Virus record (IMG/VR): IMGVR_UViG_3300045988_062714
Span: 36,078 to 100,077 of that record
Source: a virus
Length of the DNA stretch: 64,000 bases
Strand: one strand, 5' to 3'
Positions 22,601 through 63,088 of the stretch are shown one piece after another. The position numbers and the translations under genes were made by a program. The notes under the pieces were generated by a model that saw nothing but the letters and a program-made list of their open reading frames with translations, did no database searches and was not told where the DNA came from. Position 1 is the stretch's first letter. The number at the start of each line of letters is the position of its first letter.

Positions 22601-24790
22601 TTAATGAATCCAATGATCTGATACAGTAACATCTGCACCTAAAAATACATTAGGACAGAATGGTTTCCCTCCATCTATCATACATTTAACTAATACCTTA
22701 GATACTTCATCGGCAATAGATTCTGGGCATTCTAGATTAAACTCGTCATGGACTGGAACACACATCTTAACAATGTTAAGAAGCTTATGCTCCTTAATCC
22801 AATTAAATAGTTTAATAGAGGAAAGTTTAAAACACATTGCTCCCCTGTTCTGAATACGATAATTGATAGACTGCTTTTCAGATGCTGCTTTTCTCTGAAA
22901 ATATCTCTTAACGTCTTGGACGGTATCACAGCCAGGAGAATCTCTCTTCATTTCTCTGTAATAATCCCAGAACTCTGGGTCATTGAACTTCTTAGAAATC
23001 CGCCAGAGGTCATCAATATCATATATATGTGCTCTATGCTTAGTTATAGGATTTAACAAAATATAACCATCCCTCATTACCGCCATTCTACAATAATCTT
23101 GATACTGTTTTACTCCGGGGAAACCCTTCATAAAGTTATCATAGATTTCTTGAGCTTCTGACAACGGTAGACCCTTGTTATTAGCTATAGTATTTGCATC
23201 GCCTCCATAATTGATGGCAAATTCAATACCTTTAGCATCCTGTCTTTGGGCATGATATAATTTAGCTATATCCCCTATAGGGCAGTCTCTAGGGATAATA
23301 TTCGGATAAGACATTTTAGCTACTAGACTATGAACATCCCCACAGCCATGTTCAAATAGTTCAATCATAGCCTCGTCCTTAGATACAGAAGCAATGATTC
23401 TACTTTCTTGAGACTGATAATCCGCAGAAATCCACTTATTACCTTTCTCTGCAGTAAAACATGCTCTAGTTTCCTTGTCATGAGGTAAATTCTGTAGATT
23501 AAGTTTATATACTCCTCCTCCAGAACTTACTCTAGCTGTATCAGCTCCTAGTGAGTGAAAATCTACATGGATTCTTCCAGTCTTAGGGTTAATTGCCTTC
23601 AACCAGTTTTCCCCATAAGTAGAAACCACTTTTGCAGCTTCCTGATATTTTAGATAGATAGGAATAATCGGGAAATCTTTAGCCTGTGGAGCTAGAAGCT
23701 TAGCTTCAACAGATTTCTTTTCCTTCTTAGTTTGCTTATCAAATGTCTTGACTTTAATTCCTAATAATTCAAATAACTTGGTAACTTGTTGAGAGCTACT
23801 CCAGTTAATTGTGCACTTAGGCTTGGTATCAAAGCCATTAAATAAATCACCTTGATTATCTACCTTAGTAAATTGACTTATTACTCTTTTTCTATAAGCT
23901 TTAACCTTTCCGTCTGGTGTTTCAAGGTCTTCCTGAGGGCATCGGACATATTTCTCTTTTAGCAGTCTAGCTACTTCATCCTCTATTTCCATAAGATTAT
24001 AAAATTCCAGTTCTGGGTATTTAATATCCCATCCATCATGCTCATGTCTCTTTTCAGAATCCCATTGAACTACCCAATCGTTTAGTTCTTGCTCAGCATC
24101 CTTCAGCTTAACAAGGTCTTTAGCCATCTTATTTCTCCATTTTACGACATCTAGATGAACACCGCAATGCTTGAAATAAGCAAGACTCTTGATAAACTCA
24201 CACTCAAGTTTCATAGCAAGATTTAATTCTTGCTTAGCAAGCTCTATTTCTTGTTTTTCTTTAATGTCTTCTAGCCACATTACGTCTCCTGCAGCATAGA
24301 CTACTACATCTTCAGTAAGACCATCATTTATAATCTTACCTCGAACAGATTTATCTAAGTCATAGTTTAGATAATTCCATGCAGCTGCTTTCAAACTCAT
24401 TTCTCTTATATTAGCTGGATAGCCTAACCAAAGTAATTTCTCGGCAATCATACCATCCCAGATATAATTTGGCCAAATATCCTGCACATATAAAAACCCT
24501 AAGTCAAACATTAAATTCCATCCAAGAAATACTCTATCAGACTCAAAATAATTCTTTATCTCAGCTTTCTCTTCTGCTGACATAGTTGTCCAGTCAAAGA
24601 CAACTTGATTTTCTTTGCAACCTAGTTGCACAGTTAGTAACTCCTTAGTATGCGCATCTAATCCCTTAGTTTCAGTATCAAATTGAACTAAAGAAAGAGG
24701 CAACAATATTTTCATTGCCTCCTCGAAACTTACTTCTTTGTATTTTGTAGACACAAATAAAGTTTTATTCCGACTTACTAAATAAATCAT
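22601..24790 (-). CDS. polA: Family A DNA polymerase with an N-terminal 3'-5' exonuclease domain.
   Basis: Exo I FDTETKGLD. Motif A SADYQSQESRII. Motif B RQDAKGIEFAINYGG. Motif C PVHDE. Confidence 0.8.
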   Translation of the reverse strand: MIYLVSRNKTLFVSTKYKEVSFEEAMKILLPLSLVQFDTETKGLDAHTKELLTVQLGCKENQVVFDWTTMSAEEKAEIKNYFESDRVFLGWNLMFDLGFLYVQDIWPNYIWDGMIAEKLLWLGYPANIREMSLKAAAWNYLNYDLDKSVRGKIINDGLTEDVVVYAAGDVMWLEDIKEKQEIELAKQELNLAMKLECEFIKSLAYFKHCGVHLDVVKWRNKMAKDLVKLKDAEQELNDWVVQWDSEKRHEHDGWDIKYPELEFYNLMEIEDEVARLLKEKYVRCPQEDLETPDGKVKAYRKRVISQFTKVDNQGDLFNGFDTKPKCTINWSSSQQVTKLFELLGIKVKTFDKQTKKEKKSVEAKLLAPQAKDFPIIPIYLKYQEAAKVVSTYGENWLKAINPKTGRIHVDFHSLGADTARVSSGGGVYKLNLQNLPHDKETRACFTAEKGNKWISADYQSQESRIIASVSKDEAMIELFEHGCGDVHSLVAKMSYPNIIPRDCPIGDIAKLYHAQRQDAKGIEFAINYGGDANTIANNKGLPLSEAQEIYDNFMKGFPGVKQYQDYCRMAVMRDGYILLNPITKHRAHIYDIDDLWRISKKFNDPEFWDYYREMKRDSPGCDTVQDVKRYFQRKAASEKQSINYRIQNRGAMCFKLSSIKLFNWIKEHKLLNIVKMCVPVHDEFNLECPESIADEVSKVLVKCMIDGGKPFCPNVFLGADVTVSDHWIH

Positions 24791-54656: not shown

Positions 54657-55466
54657 TTATTTACAAACGTCTATTACAGTTAAGTTCTCGTTGCTGGGAC
54701 GATAATTAATATCCCTATGAGAATTAGATACAATAACCTGGTCAAAATTATTACACATATTAACCAGGCCTTTATCATTAACTGCATGACATACGATTAT
54801 GATAAACTTGCTATTTGGATATCTCTCTTTGAGAACCTTAAGCTCTCCTAGGAAAGTTCCTCCAGCATCACACAAGTCATCAATGAACACAAATGTAGAA
54901 TAGTAGCAATTCTTAGACTCCTCTATTTCAAAGGACTCAATTCTTCCAGTCTCTAGATTTCTTTCCTTTTTGAAGACTAAATAACCATAGTGAGAATAGT
55001 TACTTCCATATCTGTCCTTCGCCCCATGGTCTGGGAACACGATATTACTTTGGGCTGGAATCCAAGAGTGGTGTCCAAATTCCCAAGGTAAACATCTGTC
55101 ACCAAGAAGATGAAAAGTTCTACTAGAATGTGCCTCAAGAACATATATGTTTCTATAGCCTAAGCTATTTAACATATTACATACTACTTTCAAGGAGAAT
55201 GGACGATTAAAACTCATTACTCTATCCATACGCATAGACATTAAATAAGTAATGTGTAAATCCCATTCTACTTCTTGTCTATCTAAAATATCTCCTACTT
55301 GCATTAAGAGGAATAAATCCTCAGTATTAGATATTCTACAAATGACATCAATAGATTCCTTTCTGTTTAATTCCTCAGTAAGGAAAAACTGAGGCTCTCC
55401 ATCAGGAAATCTAGTAACATCGTACTTAATTTCACTGATTTCCTTGTTGATTAAGTTTAATTTCAT
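54657..55466 (-). CDS. Ribose-phosphate pyrophosphokinase-like enzyme (Prs-like; candidate ADPR-pyrophosphate synthetase Adps).
   Basis: PRPP-binding loop VFIDDLCDAGGTF and a Prs-like VFPDHGAKDRY segment. Confidence 0.55.
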   Translation of the reverse strand: MKLNLINKEISEIKYDVTRFPDGEPQFFLTEELNRKESIDVICRISNTEDLFLLMQVGDILDRQEVEWDLHITYLMSMRMDRVMSFNRPFSLKVVCNMLNSLGYRNIYVLEAHSSRTFHLLGDRCLPWEFGHHSWIPAQSNIVFPDHGAKDRYGSNYSHYGYLVFKKERNLETGRIESFEIEESKNCYYSTFVFIDDLCDAGGTFLGELKVLKERYPNSKFIIIVCHAVNDKGLVNMCNNFDQVIVSNSHRDINYRPSNENLTVIDVCK

Positions 55467-55887
55467 CTACTACATATTTTAAGATTTCATAACTTTCTTC
55501 TAGACCTGCCCTATCATCTAGGAGGATATTATAATAGGGTTTCTCAGAATTAGGAAATACAGGACTTTCATTTGTATATAGCTCAAAGTCTTCATCCAGA
55601 CCTAATAATTTAGCAGTTTTCATCTGTTTAATACATAGCTCTTGAAGATTTGTTTCACAGGTAAACAATATCAAATGAAATCCCAATTTATAACACTTAT
55701 TAAGTAAATTTATGACTTCACTATAATCTCCTCCATTATTATGGTAATCGAAAATAGTATTATCAAAATCGAAAGCGACTATTAGCTTTCCGTATTTATG
55801 ATACTCTTCTAATAGTCGTTTCTTGCAAGCTTCTTTCCCAAAAGGATGATTAAAGTCCATGGTCAATTCTTTGTCTGATTTCTTCAA
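55432..55887 (-). CDS. HAD-superfamily phosphatase.
   Basis: IVAFDFDNTIFDY (DxDxT). Confidence 0.5.
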   Translation of the reverse strand: MKKSDKELTMDFNHPFGKEACKKRLLEEYHKYGKLIVAFDFDNTIFDYHNNGGDYSEVINLLNKCYKLGFHLILFTCETNLQELCIKQMKTAKLLGLDEDFELYTNESPVFPNSEKPYYNILLDDRAGLEESYEILKYVVDEIKLNQQGNQ

Positions 55888-57400
55888 GAGAATATTCTTT
55901 CTTCAAGATACCATCTTCAAAGACAGTCTCTAAGCATCCCTCTTTTTCCTCCTCGATTGAGACCTGGTCGGTAGCAGTATACTTCCCATCCAGACCTTTA
56001 TAGACAGCAATCAAACCTTTCAAAGAGTTCTTAGTACCATCATCAGTTTTAGGATGTTTGAAGATTTCTTTCAATTCGCCATTTACTACGCAAGCAGTAG
56101 CCTTAATAGCAAACCCAAGACTATCTCTACTTGCATACTGATAGGAATATGAACCTACTCCCAGAACGAGATTACAAGCCGCCATATGAGCGTTTTCTAA
56201 TCTCAAGTAGATTTGCTTTTGACGTTCTAGAGTAATAGAATCTCCATAAAGCAGACCAACCTTAGTGCTAGGATAACGGTAATCCTTTGAAGTAGTATTC
56301 CATCCGAAGATTTTACCAAGCATATAATATGCCCCATAATATTGACCTTCGGACACTTCAACATACTCTGCATCGTCGTTAAACGGAGCATAGCAGCAAT
56401 AATACTTACCTTCTTTCATTCTGGTATTGAAGTGAGGATTAGTTCTCAACCCGCAGATTATATCTACTGGGTCTCCACTATCAGGACGGATTACTACTCT
56501 ACCATCACGAGCCATAATGTCTTTCTTCAGCTTGGGCAAGAAATTTTCAATTACATTCCAGAAATCCCAAGTATCAGATACAATAGAAACAAACCCAGAA
56601 GGATACAAATCATTAATTAGACGTTTGAAAGTGCCCAGCTCATCTTCCTCCCCTCCAGCACACATTACAGAGTGTTCTGTTGCTGGAACTGTAGCAGCAA
56701 TCAATTCCTCGTCTGAATTAGCTCCATAATATTCTTCCAAAGCAGCAATAGCTGGAATAGTCTCACTTCCCACAAAAGAAGTCATATGCGCCATACCAGA
56801 TATAATTGCGGCTTCCATTCCCGCCATACCTCGCATTGAGAAATCATGACAACAAAAACCAAGATTTACATCTGTTGGAAAACCAGTCTTGCAAGCATGA
56901 CGATGTAGCTCTTTCTTATAAAGCCTAGCTCTAGTAGCAGATGTGCATGGCATCCACAAGGTACAGCTGATAATAGTCTCTAAGTAGTTAGTTAACCAAA
57001 AGAACTCGGGTAGGGTATTTGTAATGGTCATCATGGGAACCCGAATAGGGCACACAGAACCTTCAGGAAGAGCCTTTATGCGAATTGGTAGATACCCAAG
57101 GTCATATAAAGCTTCAATATGTCTGTACCCAACGGATTCAATACCAACAAAGTTGTTTACTCTACGATAGAACATCTCTACAGCTTCCTTCTTTGGTAGA
57201 TTAAAGAAGTTTTTCTCAAACTGTTTAATGAGATATTCTTTGATTAGGTATTGAATACCAAATACTACTGAACCTTCGGTTGCTTCTGGGAAGTATTTAT
57301 TACTTCTAGGAGTCCAGTTACTATAAACTTGTTCAGTACCTTCGGGGTACATTCTGTGATGGCCCAATTTGTAACCATCTGTAGCATTAATTATTTCCAT
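55850..57400 (-). CDS. nadV: Nicotinamide phosphoribosyltransferase-like enzyme (NadV/NAMPT or Namat).
   Basis: N-terminal INATDGYKLGHHRMYP...QVYS matches the NAMPT TDSYKxxH...YP...VYSY pattern. 516 aa. Confidence 0.7.
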   Translation of the reverse strand: MEIINATDGYKLGHHRMYPEGTEQVYSNWTPRSNKYFPEATEGSVVFGIQYLIKEYLIKQFEKNFFNLPKKEAVEMFYRRVNNFVGIESVGYRHIEALYDLGYLPIRIKALPEGSVCPIRVPMMTITNTLPEFFWLTNYLETIISCTLWMPCTSATRARLYKKELHRHACKTGFPTDVNLGFCCHDFSMRGMAGMEAAIISGMAHMTSFVGSETIPAIAALEEYYGANSDEELIAATVPATEHSVMCAGGEEDELGTFKRLINDLYPSGFVSIVSDTWDFWNVIENFLPKLKKDIMARDGRVVIRPDSGDPVDIICGLRTNPHFNTRMKEGKYYCCYAPFNDDAEYVEVSEGQYYGAYYMLGKIFGWNTTSKDYRYPSTKVGLLYGDSITLERQKQIYLRLENAHMAACNLVLGVGSYSYQYASRDSLGFAIKATACVVNGELKEIFKHPKTDDGTKNSLKGLIAVYKGLDGKYTATDQVSIEEEKEGCLETVFEDGILKKEYSLEEIRQRIDHGL

Positions 57401-57413
57401 TCTAAAAATTATT

Positions 57414-57938
57414 TTAATAACTAATTGTTAATAAACTTTTCATGCCTTTACCACTAGCTAAATTCTTAAAACACTGAGTGATAAATTCCTTCGTTTCTGG
57501 ATGGATAGCCCTAGGAGAATTTATATACTTAATCCACCAGTTATATTCTCCTTGAAAACTATTACCGTTGTATACTTTACCAGCAGCCAGATAATCGCAT
57601 ACCAATTCTAGAGCATACTCTTTAGGCATCTTCACTGGAACACCGCCAATGTCTAGCTTAGTTACCCAGTATTCATAATGGTGTGGATTTCTTCCTCTGT
57701 GATGTAAATAAGACCTAGAATATCCTAGAATTTCTTTTTCCTTGTTTAAGGGAGATGTGTCATCATCGTAAAATTTTACAGAACGAGAGAACTCATACCA
57801 TCCGAATTTAGATAAGTCGTGCAAGATGCCCTGTTTGTATAAACCTAACTGAAAACAGTAATAAGCTACCCAAAACTTATGTCTAAGTATTCGCCTAAGA
57901 TGTTTCAGTGTTATACACATACATTTAAGAATTTCCAT
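57414..57938 (-). CDS. Hypothetical His-rich protein (possible HD-like hydrolase).
   Basis: HDLSK...YLHHRGRNPHHYEY. Confidence 0.35.
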   Translation of the reverse strand: MEILKCMCITLKHLRRILRHKFWVAYYCFQLGLYKQGILHDLSKFGWYEFSRSVKFYDDDTSPLNKEKEILGYSRSYLHHRGRNPHHYEYWVTKLDIGGVPVKMPKEYALELVCDYLAAGKVYNGNSFQGEYNWWIKYINSPRAIHPETKEFITQCFKNLASGKGMKSLLTISY

Positions 57939-58254
57939 ATCTTCTTCACTATTCTAGTTAGAAAATTATTTCCTCTTAGATTGAACTTATGTGTATATCC
58001 AGACAACTTATCTGGATTCCACACAGCATGAACTATATAGAATAAATATCCTACTGTGTATAGCATAATGTTCAGTACTGGGATAAATCCTAGGATTAGT
58101 ATTACTAAAACTAGCCACACTGGAACTTTAAGGTCACAGTCTTCTTCTATAAGTGCCACACTTCTGCTATACCCATTGTAATAAACGGTTACATGGGTAT
58201 CTTTCAAGATAAGCACCGTGATGATTACCATCACAGTGCATATTACTAGATACA

Positions 58255-59082
58255 TCATTTGTTATTAGCTACATCTTTAAATAAGGTGGGAACCTGACCA
58301 TAAGTAGGAAGTTTTCCATCCCACTTCTTAATCATATCCTGCTGAACTATGAGAACTGACAAAGATGCTGAAATCTTTCTATTATATTCAGCTTCTGCAT
58401 CACCCTTAATCTTAAGAGCTTCTGCCTCTCCTTGTGCAGCTGCTACTTTCTTTTTAGCTTCTGCCTCAATAGTCTTAACTTCATTCTCTGCCTTCAAAGC
58501 CTGTTGAATTGCAGCATTCTTAGCATCAATAGAATTGACTAGCGTCTGTGGATATTGAAGACCAGAAGTCATTTGTTCAAGCTGAAAATTCTCAGCCAAG
58601 AGTTCCTTTGACAGTCTATCTTCTATAGACTTCTCAAACTCCTCACGTTTACTTACTAGTTCATCAGTAGTATAGTTATTCAGCTGAATGCGAAAAGCAT
58701 TCTTTACGTAATTATACAAAGTAGTGTTAATTACCTCTACAATATCTTCCTTTCTATACTTCTTAAATACTTCTGGTGATTTCCCGTCAACAATCTTCAA
58801 AGAAATTGTAGGGTCTACAGTAAATGATGATCCATCTTTAGCATTAATACTGAAAGGAGGATAGTCCACAGTCTGTACGAATGTAGGATATTCATATACA
58901 GCCGTAGTAACAGGATTGTACCATACCGCACCAGTAACAAGAGACACATCGTCTACTCCTTTACCATCTCCGTATAGATTTACCTTGATGCCTTCATAAC
59001 CAGCATCAATTCTCTCATAGCCACAACTAGATAAGCCAAACACTAAAGTTAATACGCACAAAATCTTAATAATTGTCTTCAT
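58255..59082 (-). CDS. SPFH/band-7 (stomatin/HflK-like) lipoprotein.
   Basis: Lipobox LVFGLSSCGY. C-terminal Ala/Glu-rich coiled coil typical of SPFH proteins. Confidence 0.5.
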   Translation of the reverse strand: MKTIIKILCVLTLVFGLSSCGYERIDAGYEGIKVNLYGDGKGVDDVSLVTGAVWYNPVTTAVYEYPTFVQTVDYPPFSINAKDGSSFTVDPTISLKIVDGKSPEVFKKYRKEDIVEVINTTLYNYVKNAFRIQLNNYTTDELVSKREEFEKSIEDRLSKELLAENFQLEQMTSGLQYPQTLVNSIDAKNAAIQQALKAENEVKTIEAEAKKKVAAAQGEAEALKIKGDAEAEYNRKISASLSVLIVQQDMIKKWDGKLPTYGQVPTLFKDVANNK

Positions 59083-59409
59083 TTTCCTTATTTAAGTAAT
59101 GTTTCTTAATATATTTGAATATCCTATAAACTAAACTTGGGATTGCCACTAGTAATAGTAACAACCCCAAGATATTTGCAGCATACAATGATTCGGATAA
59201 TAACCATAAGCTGACGTTGTAAATCACAACGATTAACAGAACGGCAACAAATGCCTTAATTAAGTTTTTCTCGACCATAGAATAATATATTCTCTATTGC
59301 CACTTTTATTATACCATAGTAGTACATTATCCTCTGTAATGTCTACATACGGGTCATAATAAATATACGCGGCAAACATTATGCACACAATTATAAATGC
59401 AACCATGAT

Positions 59410-59523
59410 TTATCGAGTTTTAACAGACCCAGGTCTGGTAGTTGCAGCCTGAAAATCTTTTCCTTGTTTATCCCACCATGCTTGCTTTGCTTTTAACCAA
59501 GCTACTTTTTTCTTATACTTCAT
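59410..59523 (-). CDS. Small, very basic ORF of 37 aa (MKYKKKVAWLKAKQAWWDKQGKDF...).
   Basis: ATGA start/stop overlap with the OmpA-like gene. Confidence 0.3.
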   Translation of the reverse strand: MKYKKKVAWLKAKQAWWDKQGKDFQAATTRPGSVKTR

Positions 59524-60536
59524 TGTTCGGAAATTATTACGATACGATTAAATTCATTATCTCCAAATTCAGTAGTAATTCCGCATCCCTTAACAACCAA
59601 TTTATCCTCTGGAGCACCATAGCTAATCAGAGCCTTCTTCATAGATTCTGCCCTAGCTACAGCAAGGTTATTATTAAACTCTTCTGGACCTTCTTCCGAA
59701 GCATATCCCTCAATCACATAAGTTTTTCCACTATTAGAAATATAGGAAGCTAGTTCTGAGACAGCCACATTGGAAGTTTTAGAAATCTCTGAAGAATTTT
59801 GAAGGAATTGAATTTTTGGAGTCAAAAGCTCTACTTTAGTAATTTCGATTGTGTCCGTCTTAACAATTTCTATTGGTTTACGAGCCATAAGTTCCTCATT
59901 CTTGGCTCTCAACTCATTAATAGAAGCGTTTAGGCTTTCAACCTCGGCATCACTATACAACTTCATAATTGGAAAGTCCCCTTTGCTAGACTTAAAGCGA
60001 TAGGTAGCACCAATATAGACGTTAAACTCATGATTCAGAGGAGAAGTCTTGGGAAGTAACATATACTCAGGAGTAACATTTAATGCCCATCTATTAGAGA
60101 TATTAAAGTTACATCTAACGGCTCCACGGGCGGATACATTATTATAGACATCTCCATAAGTATGATACCAACCAGCACCAACGATTAGTATAGGCTCAAA
60201 CAGACGCCTATCTCCGTTATATCCACATATCAGGTTAGTAAGATTGGTAGTAACGTTAGCTGTCAAATTATGTGAATCAAAGAATGTTTTATTTCCTTGG
60301 TTCATTCCAGCCATCATGTCTAACTCCAAGCCAAAGATAGGAGTAACCTCCTTACCAATAGCAATGTTTACTAGTACATCATTTGGTTCTGCCCAACTTC
60401 TATGGTTATCCCAAATAGTAGTTCCAACATTACCAGAAATATACCAGTTATCCTTCATACTTCCAGTCTCAACAACTTGTGCGCTAGCAAATGCACACAT
60501 CAAACACAAACAAATAATACTAAAAATTCTCTTCAT
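59520..60536 (-). CDS. Outer-membrane protein with a C-terminal OmpA-like peptidoglycan-binding domain.
   Basis: Signal peptide MKRIFSIICLCLMCAFASAQ. C-terminal EGYASEEGPEEFNNNLAVARAESM (OmpA_C pattern). Confidence 0.55.
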   Translation of the reverse strand: MKRIFSIICLCLMCAFASAQVVETGSMKDNWYISGNVGTTIWDNHRSWAEPNDVLVNIAIGKEVTPIFGLELDMMAGMNQGNKTFFDSHNLTANVTTNLTNLICGYNGDRRLFEPILIVGAGWYHTYGDVYNNVSARGAVRCNFNISNRWALNVTPEYMLLPKTSPLNHEFNVYIGATYRFKSSKGDFPIMKLYSDAEVESLNASINELRAKNEELMARKPIEIVKTDTIEITKVELLTPKIQFLQNSSEISKTSNVAVSELASYISNSGKTYVIEGYASEEGPEEFNNNLAVARAESMKKALISYGAPEDKLVVKGCGITTEFGDNEFNRIVIISEQ

Positions 60537-62440: not shown

Positions 62441-62614
62441 TTACTGAATACTATCAATTACAAGACTATCCACACCTAGAGTGTCTACACTCATTGTGTC
62501 AGCAACTTCTTTAACGATTGCGATAGAATCGTTTTCTGGAGCCTGAGTCTTTGTATTACCTGCACAAGCAGACATCAGTGCAACCATTCCGAAAAGCAAT
62601 AGTACTTTCTTCAT
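62441..62614 (-). CDS. Small lipoprotein of 57 aa.
   Basis: ATG at 62614. Sequence MKKVLLLFGMVALMSAC (signal peptide plus lipobox). Absent from the track because it is shorter than 60 aa. Confidence 0.35.
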   Translation of the reverse strand: MKKVLLLFGMVALMSACAGNTKTQAPENDSIAIVKEVADTMSVDTLGVDSLVIDSIQ

Positions 62615-62655
62615 TTTTCTTAATTTAAATTAGTTAATAATCATTTTATCTATCA

Positions 62656-62707
62656 AAAAAAAGAGTGGTTCCAGTATCTGTGCTTCACCAGATACTTTCC
62701 CCACTCC
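62656..62707 (-). terminator. Rho-independent terminator on the - strand.
   Basis: Bipartite stem GAGTGG..CCAGTATCTG/CAGATACT..CCACTC followed on the - strand by U8. Confidence 0.5.
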
Positions 62708-63088
62708 TATCACTCCGAAGAGCTTGTACCATTATTAGGTTGGTCAACCTCCCTCTTCATCTTGTTGAGAATTTGGGATAATAGTCACCAAGTTTAAAGA
62801 TTACTTGTAACTGAAGCAAAAGGCTAGAATCCCGAAGGGATTCCGTAACTCCTTCAACACGTGGTTGACGAGCTATGTAGGAAGCTAACGCGCAGGCAAA
62901 GATGAAGCCGTAGTCAAAGACCTAGCTACACTAACAAAGACTAAGACAAAGACTCTCAATTAGAGAGTAGGTTGTAAATTTTTGTGTAGCCAGCGAATAA
63001 AGATTAAATCCATGCGGATTTAAGAATATACTGTTCATAATTATTCCTGTTAAGTATGTTATGTTAGCTTCCTACGGAAGTCCTCTAA
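62708..63088 (-). ncRNA. Candidate structured non-coding RNA or unusually long structured 3' UTR.
   Basis: About 380 nt with no ORF. GC is well above the genome background. Contains multiple perfect hairpins (GAATCCC/GGGATTC, AAATCC/GGATTT, CCTCTAA/TTAGAGG) and ends at a terminator. Confidence 0.3.

What the first reader, a model, noticed from the sequence alone, without database searches (positions are those of the whole stretch)
57911..60536. Envelope-targeting cassette inside the early region: SPFH lipoprotein, OmpA-like outer-membrane protein and small membrane/basic peptides
A 275-aa lipobox protein with a stomatin/HflK-like coiled-coil C terminus lies next to a 338-aa signal-peptide protein with an OmpA_C peptidoglycan-binding domain. 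Next to these are two small hydrophobic ORFs and a 37-aa Lys-rich peptide joined by an ATGA overlap. Early-expressed phage envelope proteins of this kind are candidates for superinfection exclusion, receptor masking or membrane stabilisation during infection of a Gram-negative Bacteroidota host.
Basis: partly seen in the sequence, partly recalled or inferred. Interest (0 to 1): 0.5.

Follow-up and report, generated by a model that had tools for sequence, protein, structure and literature searches.

The report
Phage SPFH and OmpA envelope genes
A large crAss-related gut phage carries, inside its replication operon, a copy of its host's OmpA outer-membrane protein and a five-gene membrane block built around a prohibitin-like lipoprotein; the genes are real, but they belong to phage families that are already annotated and whose function nobody has tested.

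Summary
All six minus-strand ORFs exist, are tightly packed (two ATGA overlaps) and are conserved in other phages. The 275-aa protein is a lipobox-bearing SPFH/Band-7 protein whose model most resembles prohibitin. The 338-aa protein is a complete OmpA-type protein: signal peptide, 8-stranded barrel, helix and OmpA_C domain.

It is not one cassette. The block 37aa/48aa/70aa/SPFH/115aa is shared with crAss-like Steigviridae, including cultured phiCrAss001-type phages. The OmpA-like gene is a lineage-specific addition that stands alone in other phage contigs. The core is the pair of a ~65-aa 2TM protein immediately upstream of the SPFH lipoprotein. This pair occurs in 16 of 19 SPFH clusters, and similar arrangements occur in N4-like, Stx, Burkholderia and Cellulophaga phages. 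Fifteen full-size sister genomes lack the pair, so it is dispensable.

Published phiCrAss001 RNA-seq puts the homologous block in the middle class (10-30 min), not with the late lysis genes.

The most likely mechanism, which is inferred, is a periplasm-facing SPFH cage on the cytoplasmic membrane that encloses small membrane partners. Superinfection exclusion, lysis timing and FtsH modulation remain open. These are known families with an untested function: moderate interest.

The parts
59520..60536 (-). 338-aa OmpA-family outer-membrane protein. It has a signal peptide ending ASA|Q, an 8-stranded beta-barrel (res 31-180, last strand ...YRF), a helix at 196-217 and an OmpA_C peptidoglycan-binding domain (238-337, motif GYASEEG...N..LAVARA).
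   Evidence: Pfam PF13505 and PF00691. AF2 model with pLDDT 75, 8 strands, a helix and an alpha/beta domain. Foldseek best hits are the full-length E. coli OmpA model 9a2m, OmpW, the OmpA TM domain and Ail. Compared with MT836666, 124 synonymous and 44 non-synonymous codon differences. 417 family representatives at E<=1e-10, none above 40% identity outside the phage lineage.
59410..59523 (-). 37-aa Lys-rich soluble peptide, translationally coupled to the OmpA-like gene by an ATGA overlap. Small basic proteins occupy the analogous place in IAS virus (69 aa) and PhiCrAssBcn1 (61 aa).
   Evidence: Overlap read. 13 synonymous and 2 non-synonymous codon differences. 95-100% conserved in all three locus variants. 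Positional analogues. No homologue outside the lineage.
59260..59406 (-). 48-aa single-TM protein of the 'Y-[DE]-P-x-[LIV]-D ... LLWYN' family.
   Evidence: The jackhmmer family is present in 28 of 82 SPFH loci, always 2-6 genes upstream of SPFH (9 of 19 SPFH clusters). Alignment. An unannotated member is present in PhiCrAssBcn1.
59066..59278 (-). 70-aa 2TM protein with a basic C-terminal tail. It is the dedicated upstream partner of the SPFH gene and overlaps its start by 17 nt.
   Evidence: The family is found in 61 of 82 loci, only at position -1 or -2 of SPFH (16 of 19 SPFH clusters). A conserved loop motif T-x-x-N-[IV]-x-G appears in the alignment. It is lost together with SPFH in 15 sister genomes. 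No PHROG or Pfam family.
58255..59082 (-). 275-aa prohibitin-like SPFH/Band-7 lipoprotein. It has lipobox LSSC20, an SPFH domain at 21-172, a 75-residue helix at 179-253 and a C-terminal I-x-K-W-D-G-K-L-P motif.
   Evidence: Pfam PF01145 E 3e-22 and phrog_200 'lipoprotein' E 4e-60. PDB sequence search: best hit prohibitin-2, E 2e-6. AF2 pLDDT 77. Foldseek full-length matches to prohibitin, stomatin, HflK/C, QmcA, erlin, flotillin and vault cages. The C-terminal motif is conserved from crAss-like to N4-like, Pseudomonas, Burkholderia, Caulobacter and Staphylococcus phages.
57911..58258 (-). 115-aa 3TM protein, ATGA-coupled to the SPFH gene. Its family carries an 'IPV-x-N-I' motif in TM2/3.
   Evidence: The family is found in 41 of 82 loci, always directly downstream of SPFH (14 of 19 clusters). 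It is retained as a 104-aa homologue (hmmsearch E 3e-12) in sister genomes that lack SPFH. In Steigviridae it precedes a membrane-anchored glucosaminidase. No PHROG match.

Best explanation
The region is a mosaic of dispensable cell-envelope genes. They are co-transcribed with the replication and nucleotide-metabolism genes of a ~188-kb crAss-related gut phage.

(1) The five genes 37aa/48aa/70aa/SPFH/115aa form a block inherited in common with, or exchanged with, Steigviridae crAss-like phages. Its core is a pair: a ~65-aa 2TM inner-membrane protein followed by a prohibitin-like lipoprotein. The lipoprotein is exported and lipid-anchored. By analogy with every solved SPFH assembly, it is predicted to oligomerise into a closed cage on the periplasmic face of the cytoplasmic membrane. 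The 2TM partner, and possibly the 3TM protein or host proteins such as FtsH, would sit inside. During the middle phase of infection this would fence off a patch of inner membrane, shielding or organising membrane proteins and keeping the envelope working until lysis.

(2) The 338-aa protein is a diverged phage copy of the host's major OmpA-type protein. It would be inserted into the outer membrane and tethered to peptidoglycan, adding to or replacing host OmpA.

Shown: gene reality, domain architecture, targeting signals, synteny, dispensability, and middle-class timing in a cultured relative.

Inferred: cage formation, inner-membrane location, physical interaction of the partners, and any phenotype.
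For: Architecture.

Extracytoplasmic topology is conserved. There is a lipobox in phages of Gram-negative hosts and an N-terminal TM anchor in Staphylococcus and Enterococcus phages.

Partner synteny:
- The 2TM family occurs only at -1/-2 of SPFH, in 61 of 82 loci and 16 of 19 clusters. The 3TM family occurs only at +1.
- A 2TM ORF overlaps the SPFH start in a Bacteroidales prophage, in PhiCrAssBcn1 and in an Stx2 phage.
- The same arrangement appears in N4-like Moo19 (gp30/gp31, the N4 gp19/gp20 homologues), phiE125 gp44/gp43 and Cellulophaga phi17:2 gp168/gp169.

The pair behaves as a unit. Fifteen full-size (183-192 kb) sister contigs plus MT836666 lack both genes, while the OmpA-like, 37-aa, 48-aa and 3TM-family genes are kept.

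Operon context: genes overlap, and neither scan exceeded its shuffle expectation in 54-64 kb; a few terminator-like hairpins do fall inside the block's coding sequence. DNA polymerase, NrdD, ligases, helicases and primase lie on the same strand.

Timing: in phiCrAss001 the SPFH gene rises by log2 8.2-8.8 between 10 and 30 min, like the HKD nuclease and replication genes. Early genes peak at 10 min and late genes at 60 min.

OmpA-like protein:
- Bacterial full-length homologues have the same barrel + coiled-coil + GYASPEG architecture at about 30% identity, in a chromosomal context.
- Homologues in three other phage contigs also lie in replication regions.
Against: - No experiment exists for any phage SPFH protein.
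- Oligomerisation and partner binding could not be modelled with the tools available.
- Sorting rules for Bacteroidota lipoproteins are not established, so an outer-membrane location cannot be excluded.
- Outside Bacteroidota phages the upstream small TM proteins are similar only in position and architecture. Homology is weak or undetectable, and Enterococcus EF24C has no upstream partner.
- In contig L096 the SPFH allele is swapped without the 2TM gene.
- Adjacency to a glucosaminidase in Steigviridae, and to lysK/holA in Kayvirus, leaves a lysis-related role open.
Confidence: 0.45

Rival explanations
1. Superinfection exclusion or receptor masking. The OmpA-like protein would replace or mask a host OmpA-type receptor. 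The periplasmic SPFH cage would block DNA entry of later-arriving phages at the inner membrane.
For: - The genes are middle-expressed, dispensable and patchily distributed, as exclusion genes typically are.
- In an Stx2 prophage the pair lies between cI and int, and in N4-like Moo19 it lies next to a P22 gp17-like exclusion gene.
- A B. uniformis OmpA-family gene acquired a SNP in a phage-tropism-switched host.
Against: - No similarity to Imm, Sp, Llp, Cor, Sie or any PADLOC model.
- The OmpA-like protein is at most 40% identical to any non-phage homologue, so mimicry of a specific receptor is not evident.
- No adsorption or plating data exist.
Confidence: 0.2
2. Lysis-timing module. The 2TM and 3TM proteins would be holin/antiholin-like, and the SPFH cage would sequester them to delay or synchronise hole formation.
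For: - In 8 of 19 SPFH clusters (Steigviridae and relatives) the order is 2TM, SPFH, 3TM, membrane-anchored glucosaminidase.
- In Kayvirus the SPFH gene mbpS lies between lysK/holA and tgl.
- The sizes, TM counts and charged C-termini resemble class II and class I holins.
Against: - In this window no peptidoglycan hydrolase is nearby.
- In N4-like, Bruynoghevirus, phiE125, CcrSwift, EF24C, phi17:2, Stx2 and Bacteroidales prophages the pair is not next to lysis genes.
- The phiCrAss001 authors place holin and endolysin in the late module, whereas the SPFH block and its glucosaminidase are middle genes.
- No holin family matches.
Confidence: 0.15
3. HflK/C mimic. The phage cage would enclose or displace the host FtsH-HflKC complex, changing degradation of membrane or regulatory proteins.
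For: - Prohibitin and HflK/C, the closest folds, both face the extracytoplasmic side and regulate FtsH-type AAA proteases (plus established knowledge of 7vhq, 7wi3 and 8rrh).
- FtsH is universal, which matches the spread of the family across Gram-negative and Gram-positive phages.
Against: - The score against the HflC equivalog is far below its cut-off (16 vs 134 bits).
- There is a single gene instead of a K/C pair, and a lipid anchor instead of a TM helix.
- The strictly linked 2TM partner has no counterpart in HflKC.
- The idea is only speculation in the literature.
Confidence: 0.15
4. The small ORFs are chance reading frames, or the proteins are virion components.
For: Three peptides of an SPFH lipoprotein were recovered in a Vi01-like virion proteome.
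Against: - Conservation is position-specific and substitutions are biased towards synonymous changes.
- The genes carry membrane-targeting signals and lie in the replication operon, and the homologous block is a middle-class transcript.
- The peptide count in that proteome was trivial compared with structural proteins.
Confidence: 0.03

Closest known systems
Phage SPFH/Band-7 lipoproteins (PHROG 200): N4 gp20, phiCrAss001 gp91, phiE125 gp43, CcrSwift gp244, Kayvirus MbpS
   Same: Same family (E 4e-60 to phrog_200). Same length, the same extracytoplasmic anchoring, the same C-terminal KW(D/N)GxLP motif, and usually a small TM gene just upstream.
   Different: Here the gene sits in a ~188-kb crAss-related phage, next to an OmpA-like gene. 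None of the family has a tested function.
Prohibitin (PHB1/2), HflK/C-FtsH and other SPFH cages (stomatin, QmcA-YbbJ, erlin, flotillin)
   Same: SPFH domain followed by a long coiled-coil helix, with full-length structural matches. It faces the extracytoplasmic side, like PHB and HflK/C.
   Different: It is a single gene with a lipid anchor rather than a TM helix. It scores below the HflC and FloT equivalog cut-offs. Its partner is a ~65-aa 2TM protein without the NfeD OB-fold. Cage formation is not shown.
Bacteroidota OmpA-family proteins (for example the Capnocytophaga gingivalis OmpA periplasmic region 5wtl, and the chromosomal homologue P0013)
   Same: Signal peptide ending A|Q, 8-stranded barrel, helical linker, and an OmpA_C domain with the GYAS-EG...N..L...RA motif.
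   Different: Only about 30-40% identical. It is shorter (338 vs ~400 aa), phage-encoded, and lies in a replication operon.
Cellulophaga phage phi17:2 gp168-gp171
   Same: 2TM protein, SPFH lipoprotein, tiny ORF, then an OmpA-domain outer-membrane protein, in one block in another Bacteroidota phage.
   Different: The gene order is reversed (OmpA-like downstream). Identity is 31% for SPFH, and for the OmpA-like protein only the OmpA_C domain aligns (28%). It is unclear whether this is common descent or convergence.
Early or middle phage envelope exclusion proteins (T5 Llp, Cor, T4 Imm/Sp)
   Same: Small membrane or lipoprotein products, dispensable, made before late genes. The comparison rests on established knowledge of those systems.
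   Different: No sequence or fold relationship. No phenotype is known.

Membership tests
SPFH/Band-7 superfamily | SPFH (PF01145) domain above the Pfam gathering score | tested here: met
   79.8 bits against a cut-off of 23.6, residues 24-209.
SPFH/Band-7 superfamily | SPFH domain followed by a long coiled-coil helix, as in the cage-forming members | tested here: met
   The AF2 model has the domain at 21-172 and a helix at 179-253. Foldseek E is 3e-13 to 1e-8 against prohibitin, stomatin, HflK/C, QmcA, erlin and flotillin.
SPFH/Band-7 superfamily | Assembly into a closed multimeric ring or cage on a membrane | not testable with these tools
   Only monomer prediction was available.
HflK/HflC (FtsH modulators) | Score above the NCBIfam equivalog cut-off | tested here: not met
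   TIGR01932 hflC: 16.1 bits against a cut-off of 134.4.
HflK/HflC (FtsH modulators) | Two paralogous subunits with N-terminal TM anchors | tested here: not met
   A single SPFH gene with a lipobox instead of a TM anchor.
HflK/HflC (FtsH modulators) | Physical association with FtsH | not testable with these tools
   This requires pull-down experiments or cryo-EM.
SPFH-NfeD operon | Adjacent NfeD partner with a C-terminal OB-fold (PF01957) | tested here: not met
   The flanking 70-aa and 115-aa proteins have no Pfam hit and are too short for an OB domain.
Phage SPFH lipoprotein family (PHROG 200) | Full-length profile match | tested here: met
   E 3.7e-60, residues 1-265. 565 phage records hold relatives.
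Bacterial lipoprotein | Signal peptide with lipobox [LVI][ASTVI][GAS]C | tested here: met
   MKTIIKILCVLTLVFGLSSC. Cys20 is invariant in 36 homologues and near-invariant across distant phages. Lipidation itself is not testable here.
OmpA family outer-membrane protein | N-terminal 8-stranded beta-barrel | tested here: met
   PF13505 at 42 bits against a cut-off of 28.7. Eight strands in the AF2 model. Matches to OmpA-TM, OmpW, Ail and NspA.
OmpA family outer-membrane protein | C-terminal OmpA_C (PF00691) domain | tested here: met
   43 bits against a cut-off of 27.2. TM-score is up to 0.83 on OmpA_C structures.
OmpA family outer-membrane protein | Peptidoglycan-contacting Asp and Arg of the OmpA_C pocket | tested here: inconclusive
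   The Arg is conserved (R295 invariant). The Asp position is Ser (GYAS), as it also is in the bacterial homologues P0011 and P0013. Binding was not tested.
Holins (class I / II) | Match to a holin family, or adjacency to the phage's lysis endolysin | tested here: not met
   No Pfam or PHROG hit for the 70-aa or 115-aa proteins or their families. No lysin is nearby in the window. Only the size and TM architecture are holin-like.
Spanins | Small outer-membrane lipoprotein plus a type II inner-membrane protein, next to holin and endolysin | tested here: not met
   The lipoprotein is 275 aa with an SPFH domain and is not in a lysis cassette.
Known exclusion or defence proteins | Similarity to a PADLOC model or to NCBIfam exclusion models (Cor and others) | tested here: not met
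   No significant hit for any of the six proteins.

The most novel reading that the evidence does not exclude
The 2TM-protein + prohibitin-like lipoprotein pair (N4 gp19/gp20 type) may be an ancient two-component module that phages of many bacterial phyla use to build their own SPFH cage on the outer face of the cytoplasmic membrane. The cage could cordon off host machinery such as FtsH or DNA-entry routes, or the phage's own membrane proteins. In Bacteroidota phages the module would have been expanded with extra small membrane proteins and, in two lineages, with a phage OmpA. This would be a previously unrecognised class of membrane-takeover device.
Probability: 0.2. Interest if true: 0.65.

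Novelty: new member of a known kind. Interest (0 to 1): 0.35.

Why it matters
SPFH lipoproteins occur in about 1% of sequenced phage genomes (565 of 50,697 records). They include crAss-like phages, the most abundant human gut viruses, as well as N4-like, Kayvirus and Stx phages. No function has been tested for any of them.

This analysis adds three things:
- The gene almost always travels with a tiny 2TM partner, which is often left unannotated.
- In crAss-like phages it is part of a five-gene middle-expressed membrane block.
- Natural sister genomes with and without the pair exist.

Together with the cultured phiCrAss001 and PhiCrAssBcn phages on B. intestinalis, these points make the question directly testable.

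The phage OmpA copy matters for how gut phages remodel the Bacteroidota outer membrane, with possible effects on receptor display, vesiculation and envelope strength. Evidence for any of these effects is still lacking.

Tried and rejected
- **Lysis cassette.** The crAss-type glucosaminidase has no homologue in the window (tblastn), and the adjoining genes are DUF5662, NAMPT-like and RNase H. phiCrAss001 data place the block in the middle class and the lysis genes in the late class. I kept this only as a minor rival.
- **Defence or exclusion families.** PADLOC and NCBIfam gave nothing.
- **NfeD partner.** No such domain is present.
- **Internal promoters or terminators splitting the block.** Neither scan exceeded its shuffle expectation in 54-64 kb, and the Bacteroidota-type promoter pattern was found only once in the window, elsewhere.
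- **PHROG search of the 70-aa and 115-aa families, member by member.** There were no informative hits.
- **Homology of the 2TM partner beyond Bacteroidota phages.** Only a weak match to the N4 gp19-like protein (E 3e-6 in a 9-sequence set); the others were not significant. I therefore claim positional and architectural analogy, not homology.
- **Frequent truncation of the OmpA-like gene.** 40 of 41 IMG/VR loci are intact. The truncated forms in other assemblies are a minority, with breaks at scattered positions. I do not treat this as phase variation.
- **Host identification through genome contigs.** The scan returned only MAG bins (Bacteroidales, Alistipes, Prevotella and evident misbins) and was not decisive.
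- **Literature.** No experimental paper on phage SPFH or phage OmpA-like proteins was found. One search failed on a term that was too short.


Full report
**What is in the sequence.**
Between 57911 and 60536, six ORFs run head to tail on the minus strand. In order of transcription they are:
- 338 aa (59520-60536)
- 37 aa (59410-59523)
- 48 aa (59260-59406)
- 70 aa (59066-59278)
- 275 aa (58255-59082)
- 115 aa (57911-58258)

Neighbouring genes overlap or are separated by a few bases. The ATGA junctions between the 338-aa and 37-aa genes, and between the 275-aa and 115-aa genes, were read directly. Neither a sigma-70-type scan, a terminator scan nor a Bacteroidota-type promoter pattern gave more sites than shuffled sequence. 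The block continues without a break into DUF5662, a NAMPT-like gene, a HAD-like gene and a PRPS-like gene downstream, and from RNase H upstream. Further along the same strand lie DNA polymerase, NrdD, RNA and DNA ligases, helicases, primase, thymidylate synthase and polynucleotide kinase. The genes are therefore part of the replication and nucleotide-metabolism transcription unit.

**The phage.**
Identical or near-identical copies of the region lie on IMG/VR contigs of 183-193 kb from human gut samples. The DNA polymerase is 45-52% identical to PolA of Steigviridae crAss-like phages. The window therefore comes from a large crAss-related phage. A Bacteroidota host is indicated by several observations:
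- The invariant A|Q end of the OmpA-like signal peptide. This matches the Bacteroidetes "Q-rule" for signal peptidase I substrates, which I know from the literature and did not test here.
- The GYAS-EG variant of the OmpA_C motif, shared with bacterial homologues.
- SPFH relatives in Bacteroides, Prevotella and Lak phages and in Bacteroidales MAG bins.

**The 275-aa protein.**
It scores well above threshold for the SPFH/Band-7 domain and matches PHROG 200 "lipoprotein" over its full length. The N-terminus, MKTIIKILCVLTLVFGLSSC, is a textbook lipobox, and the Cys is invariant in 36 homologues. By sequence, the nearest solved structures are prohibitin-2 and prohibitin-1. An AF2 model (pLDDT 77) shows the SPFH domain followed by a 75-residue helix. 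It aligns over its whole length with the subunits of prohibitin, stomatin, HflK/C, QmcA-YbbJ, erlin, flotillin and vault cages. It is not an HflC, HflK or FloT orthologue by NCBIfam cut-offs. A C-terminal I-x-K-W-(D/N)-G-x-L-P motif is shared with homologues from N4-like, Pseudomonas, Burkholderia, Caulobacter, Stx and Staphylococcus phages.

The family is widespread. 565 of 50,697 phage records contain a relative, and 3,656 protein clusters scored at E<=1e-5 in the metagenome collection. Phages of Gram-positive hosts replace the lipobox with a TM anchor, so the extracytoplasmic orientation is conserved.

**The 338-aa protein.**
Pfam finds both the outer-membrane beta-barrel domain and OmpA_C. 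The AF2 model (pLDDT 75) has eight strands, a helix at 196-217 and the alpha/beta OmpA_C domain. Its best structural match is a full-length E. coli OmpA model, followed by OmpA_C domains and by the 8-stranded barrels OmpW, OmpA-TM, Ail and NspA. An exhaustive HMMER search finds 417 family representatives at E<=1e-10, mostly full-length and 30-40% identical. One of them (31% identical) sits among cobalamin and branched-chain amino-acid genes in a bacterial contig. The phage gene is therefore a diverged copy of a host-type OmpA. Relatives occur in at least three other phage-like contigs, each time inside the replication or nucleotide-metabolism region and without an SPFH gene. One contig of this phage group retains only the last 40 codons.

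**The small ORFs are genes.**
The 37-aa ORF differs from its counterpart in MT836666 at 13 synonymous and only 2 non-synonymous codons. Iterative HMM searches started from the 70-, 115- and 48-aa proteins, run against all 1963 plus-strand ORFs of 82 SPFH-containing loci, recovered hits only at fixed places:
- the 70-aa family at -1/-2 of SPFH (61 loci)
- the 115-aa family at +1 (41 loci)
- the 48-aa family at -2 to -6 (28 loci)

After collapsing SPFH proteins at 90% identity, these families accompany 16, 14 and 9 of 19 clusters respectively. Alignments show conserved motifs rather than mere hydrophobicity. None of the families is in Pfam, or in PHROGs at E<0.01.

**One cassette or several modules?**
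The cultured B. intestinalis phage PhiCrAssBcn1 (Kehishuvirus, the genus of phiCrAss001) and IAS virus carry the following series: 48-aa family, small basic protein, 70-aa family, SPFH, 115-aa family, then a membrane-anchored glucosaminidase. Two of these ORFs are unannotated in GenBank. The five small-gene/SPFH block is thus shared with Steigviridae. The OmpA-like gene is not: among SPFH loci it appears only in this phage group and, in reversed order, in Cellulophaga phage phi17:2.

Within the ~188-kb phage group there are three locus types:
- the window type
- a type with diverged alleles of the 70-aa, SPFH and 115-aa genes
- a type lacking exactly the 70-aa and SPFH genes while keeping the OmpA-like, 37-aa and 48-aa genes and a 104-aa member of the 115-aa family (hmmsearch E 3e-12); this comprises 15 contigs, mostly 183-192 kb, plus MT836666

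The 2TM+SPFH pair is therefore a unit, and it is dispensable. A Bacteroidales prophage carries the same pair after RecT/YqaJ in its early operon. An Stx2 phage has an unannotated 62-aa 2TM ORF overlapping the SPFH start, between cI and int. N4-like Moo19 (gp30/gp31, annotated as N4 gp19/gp20 homologues), phiE125 (gp44/gp43) and phi17:2 (gp168/gp169) show the same layout. Sequence homology of the small partner outside Bacteroidota phages could not be established.

**Timing.**
The supplementary RNA-seq table of the phiCrAss001 study gives log2 changes between successive time points at 0, 10, 30, 60, 90 and 120 min.
- The SPFH gene (crAss001_91) rises 1.7/2.3 by 10 min and 8.8/8.2 between 10 and 30 min, then falls.
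- The downstream small gene (crAss001_90), the glucosaminidase (crAss001_89) and the HKD nuclease (crAss001_88) behave the same way.
- Early genes jump at 10 min. A late gene jumps at 60 min.

The authors list holin and endolysin among the late genes. The homologous block is therefore middle-class and is separate from the late lysis genes. For the present phage this timing is inferred from synteny, not measured.

**Mechanism.**
Every solved SPFH protein with this architecture forms a closed cage on a membrane. Prohibitin and HflK/C, the closest matches, do so on the extracytoplasmic face and enclose FtsH-type proteases (established structural knowledge; matches). The simplest reading is that the phage lipoprotein assembles such a cage on the periplasmic face of the cytoplasmic membrane, and that its obligatory alpha-helical 2TM partner sits inside it. 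The 3TM protein or host proteins might be further clients.

What this achieves is not known. Possibilities are shielding of membrane proteins from FtsH, stabilisation of the energised membrane, control of holin-like proteins, or blocking entry of competing phages. The OmpA copy would add outer-membrane-to-peptidoglycan tethers or displace host OmpA. I put 0.45 on the general cage-plus-client, accessory envelope-remodelling picture, and lower values on each specific purpose.

**Literature.**
Full-text searches found only annotation-level mentions and speculation: HflKC/lambda CII analogies, "remains unclear", and a suggested aid to Sec export in Kayvirus. No experiment was found. The gene families are known and annotated. 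The consistent small partner, the five-gene block and the natural presence/absence variants appear not to have been described in the papers searched.

**Verdict.**
This is a new member of known kinds, with moderate interest because a widespread, unexplained phage membrane module becomes experimentally approachable.

Noticed in passing
window 54657-57400 (-): A NAMPT-like gene (55850-57400), a HAD-like phosphatase (55432-55887) and a PRPS-like gene (54657-55466) lie directly downstream of the block. A NAMPT + PRPS pair also neighbours the SPFH block in crAss-like cr126_1. The pair resembles the phage NAD+ reconstitution pathway NARP1 (Namat + Adps; papers listed) plus a phosphatase, so it may be a counter-defence locus.
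   Followed up: partly
window 62441-62614 (-): A 57-aa ORF with a lipobox (LMSAC) is the first gene after the 475-nt intergenic gap 62615-63088, which holds the best promoter-like site of the region. It is conserved in MT836666. It has only sub-threshold hits to the PG1828-family lipoprotein and to the phage exclusion lipoprotein Cor. A small lipoprotein at the start of the operon is a better formal candidate for an exclusion factor than the SPFH protein.
   Followed up: partly
window 57414-57938 (-): The DUF5662 protein carries H...HD and HHxGxNPHH motifs, suggesting an HD-type metal-dependent hydrolase. It fits with the nucleotide-metabolism genes rather than with the envelope block.
   Followed up: no
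L017 / L127 (IMG/VR contig 3300045988_065173, 193 kb): This is a natural variant in which the OmpA-like gene is reduced to its last 40 codons while the 37-aa, 48-aa, 70-aa, SPFH and 115-aa genes are intact. A minority of assemblies also carry frameshifted OmpA-like genes, with breaks at scattered positions.
   Followed up: partly
L096 (IMG/VR contig 3300045988_058615): The SPFH allele is only 66% identical to the window's, yet it lies between a 99%-identical 70-aa gene and an 87%-identical 115-aa gene. This indicates recombination inside the block.
   Followed up: no
L157 4554-4769 and 4936-5106 (PhiCrAssBcn1); L135 2816-3004 (Stx2 phage EH1910); L136 7817-8011 (Bacteroidales prophage): Small conserved membrane ORFs next to SPFH genes are missing from the deposited annotations, or were called on the wrong strand.
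   Followed up: yes
L006 upstream edge (IMG/VR contig 3300045988_056969): A 73-aa glucosaminidase-like fragment lies about 6 kb upstream of SPFH in one contig of the same phage group. The equivalent region of another contig shows no such gene. It may be a chimeric assembly or an insertion.
   Followed up: no
window 22601-24790 (-) and whole window: The DNA polymerase is 45-52% identical to Steigviridae PolA, and related contigs are 183-193 kb. The window therefore seems to belong to one of the large-genome crAss-related groups. No tRNA genes were found in the 64 kb.
   Followed up: partly
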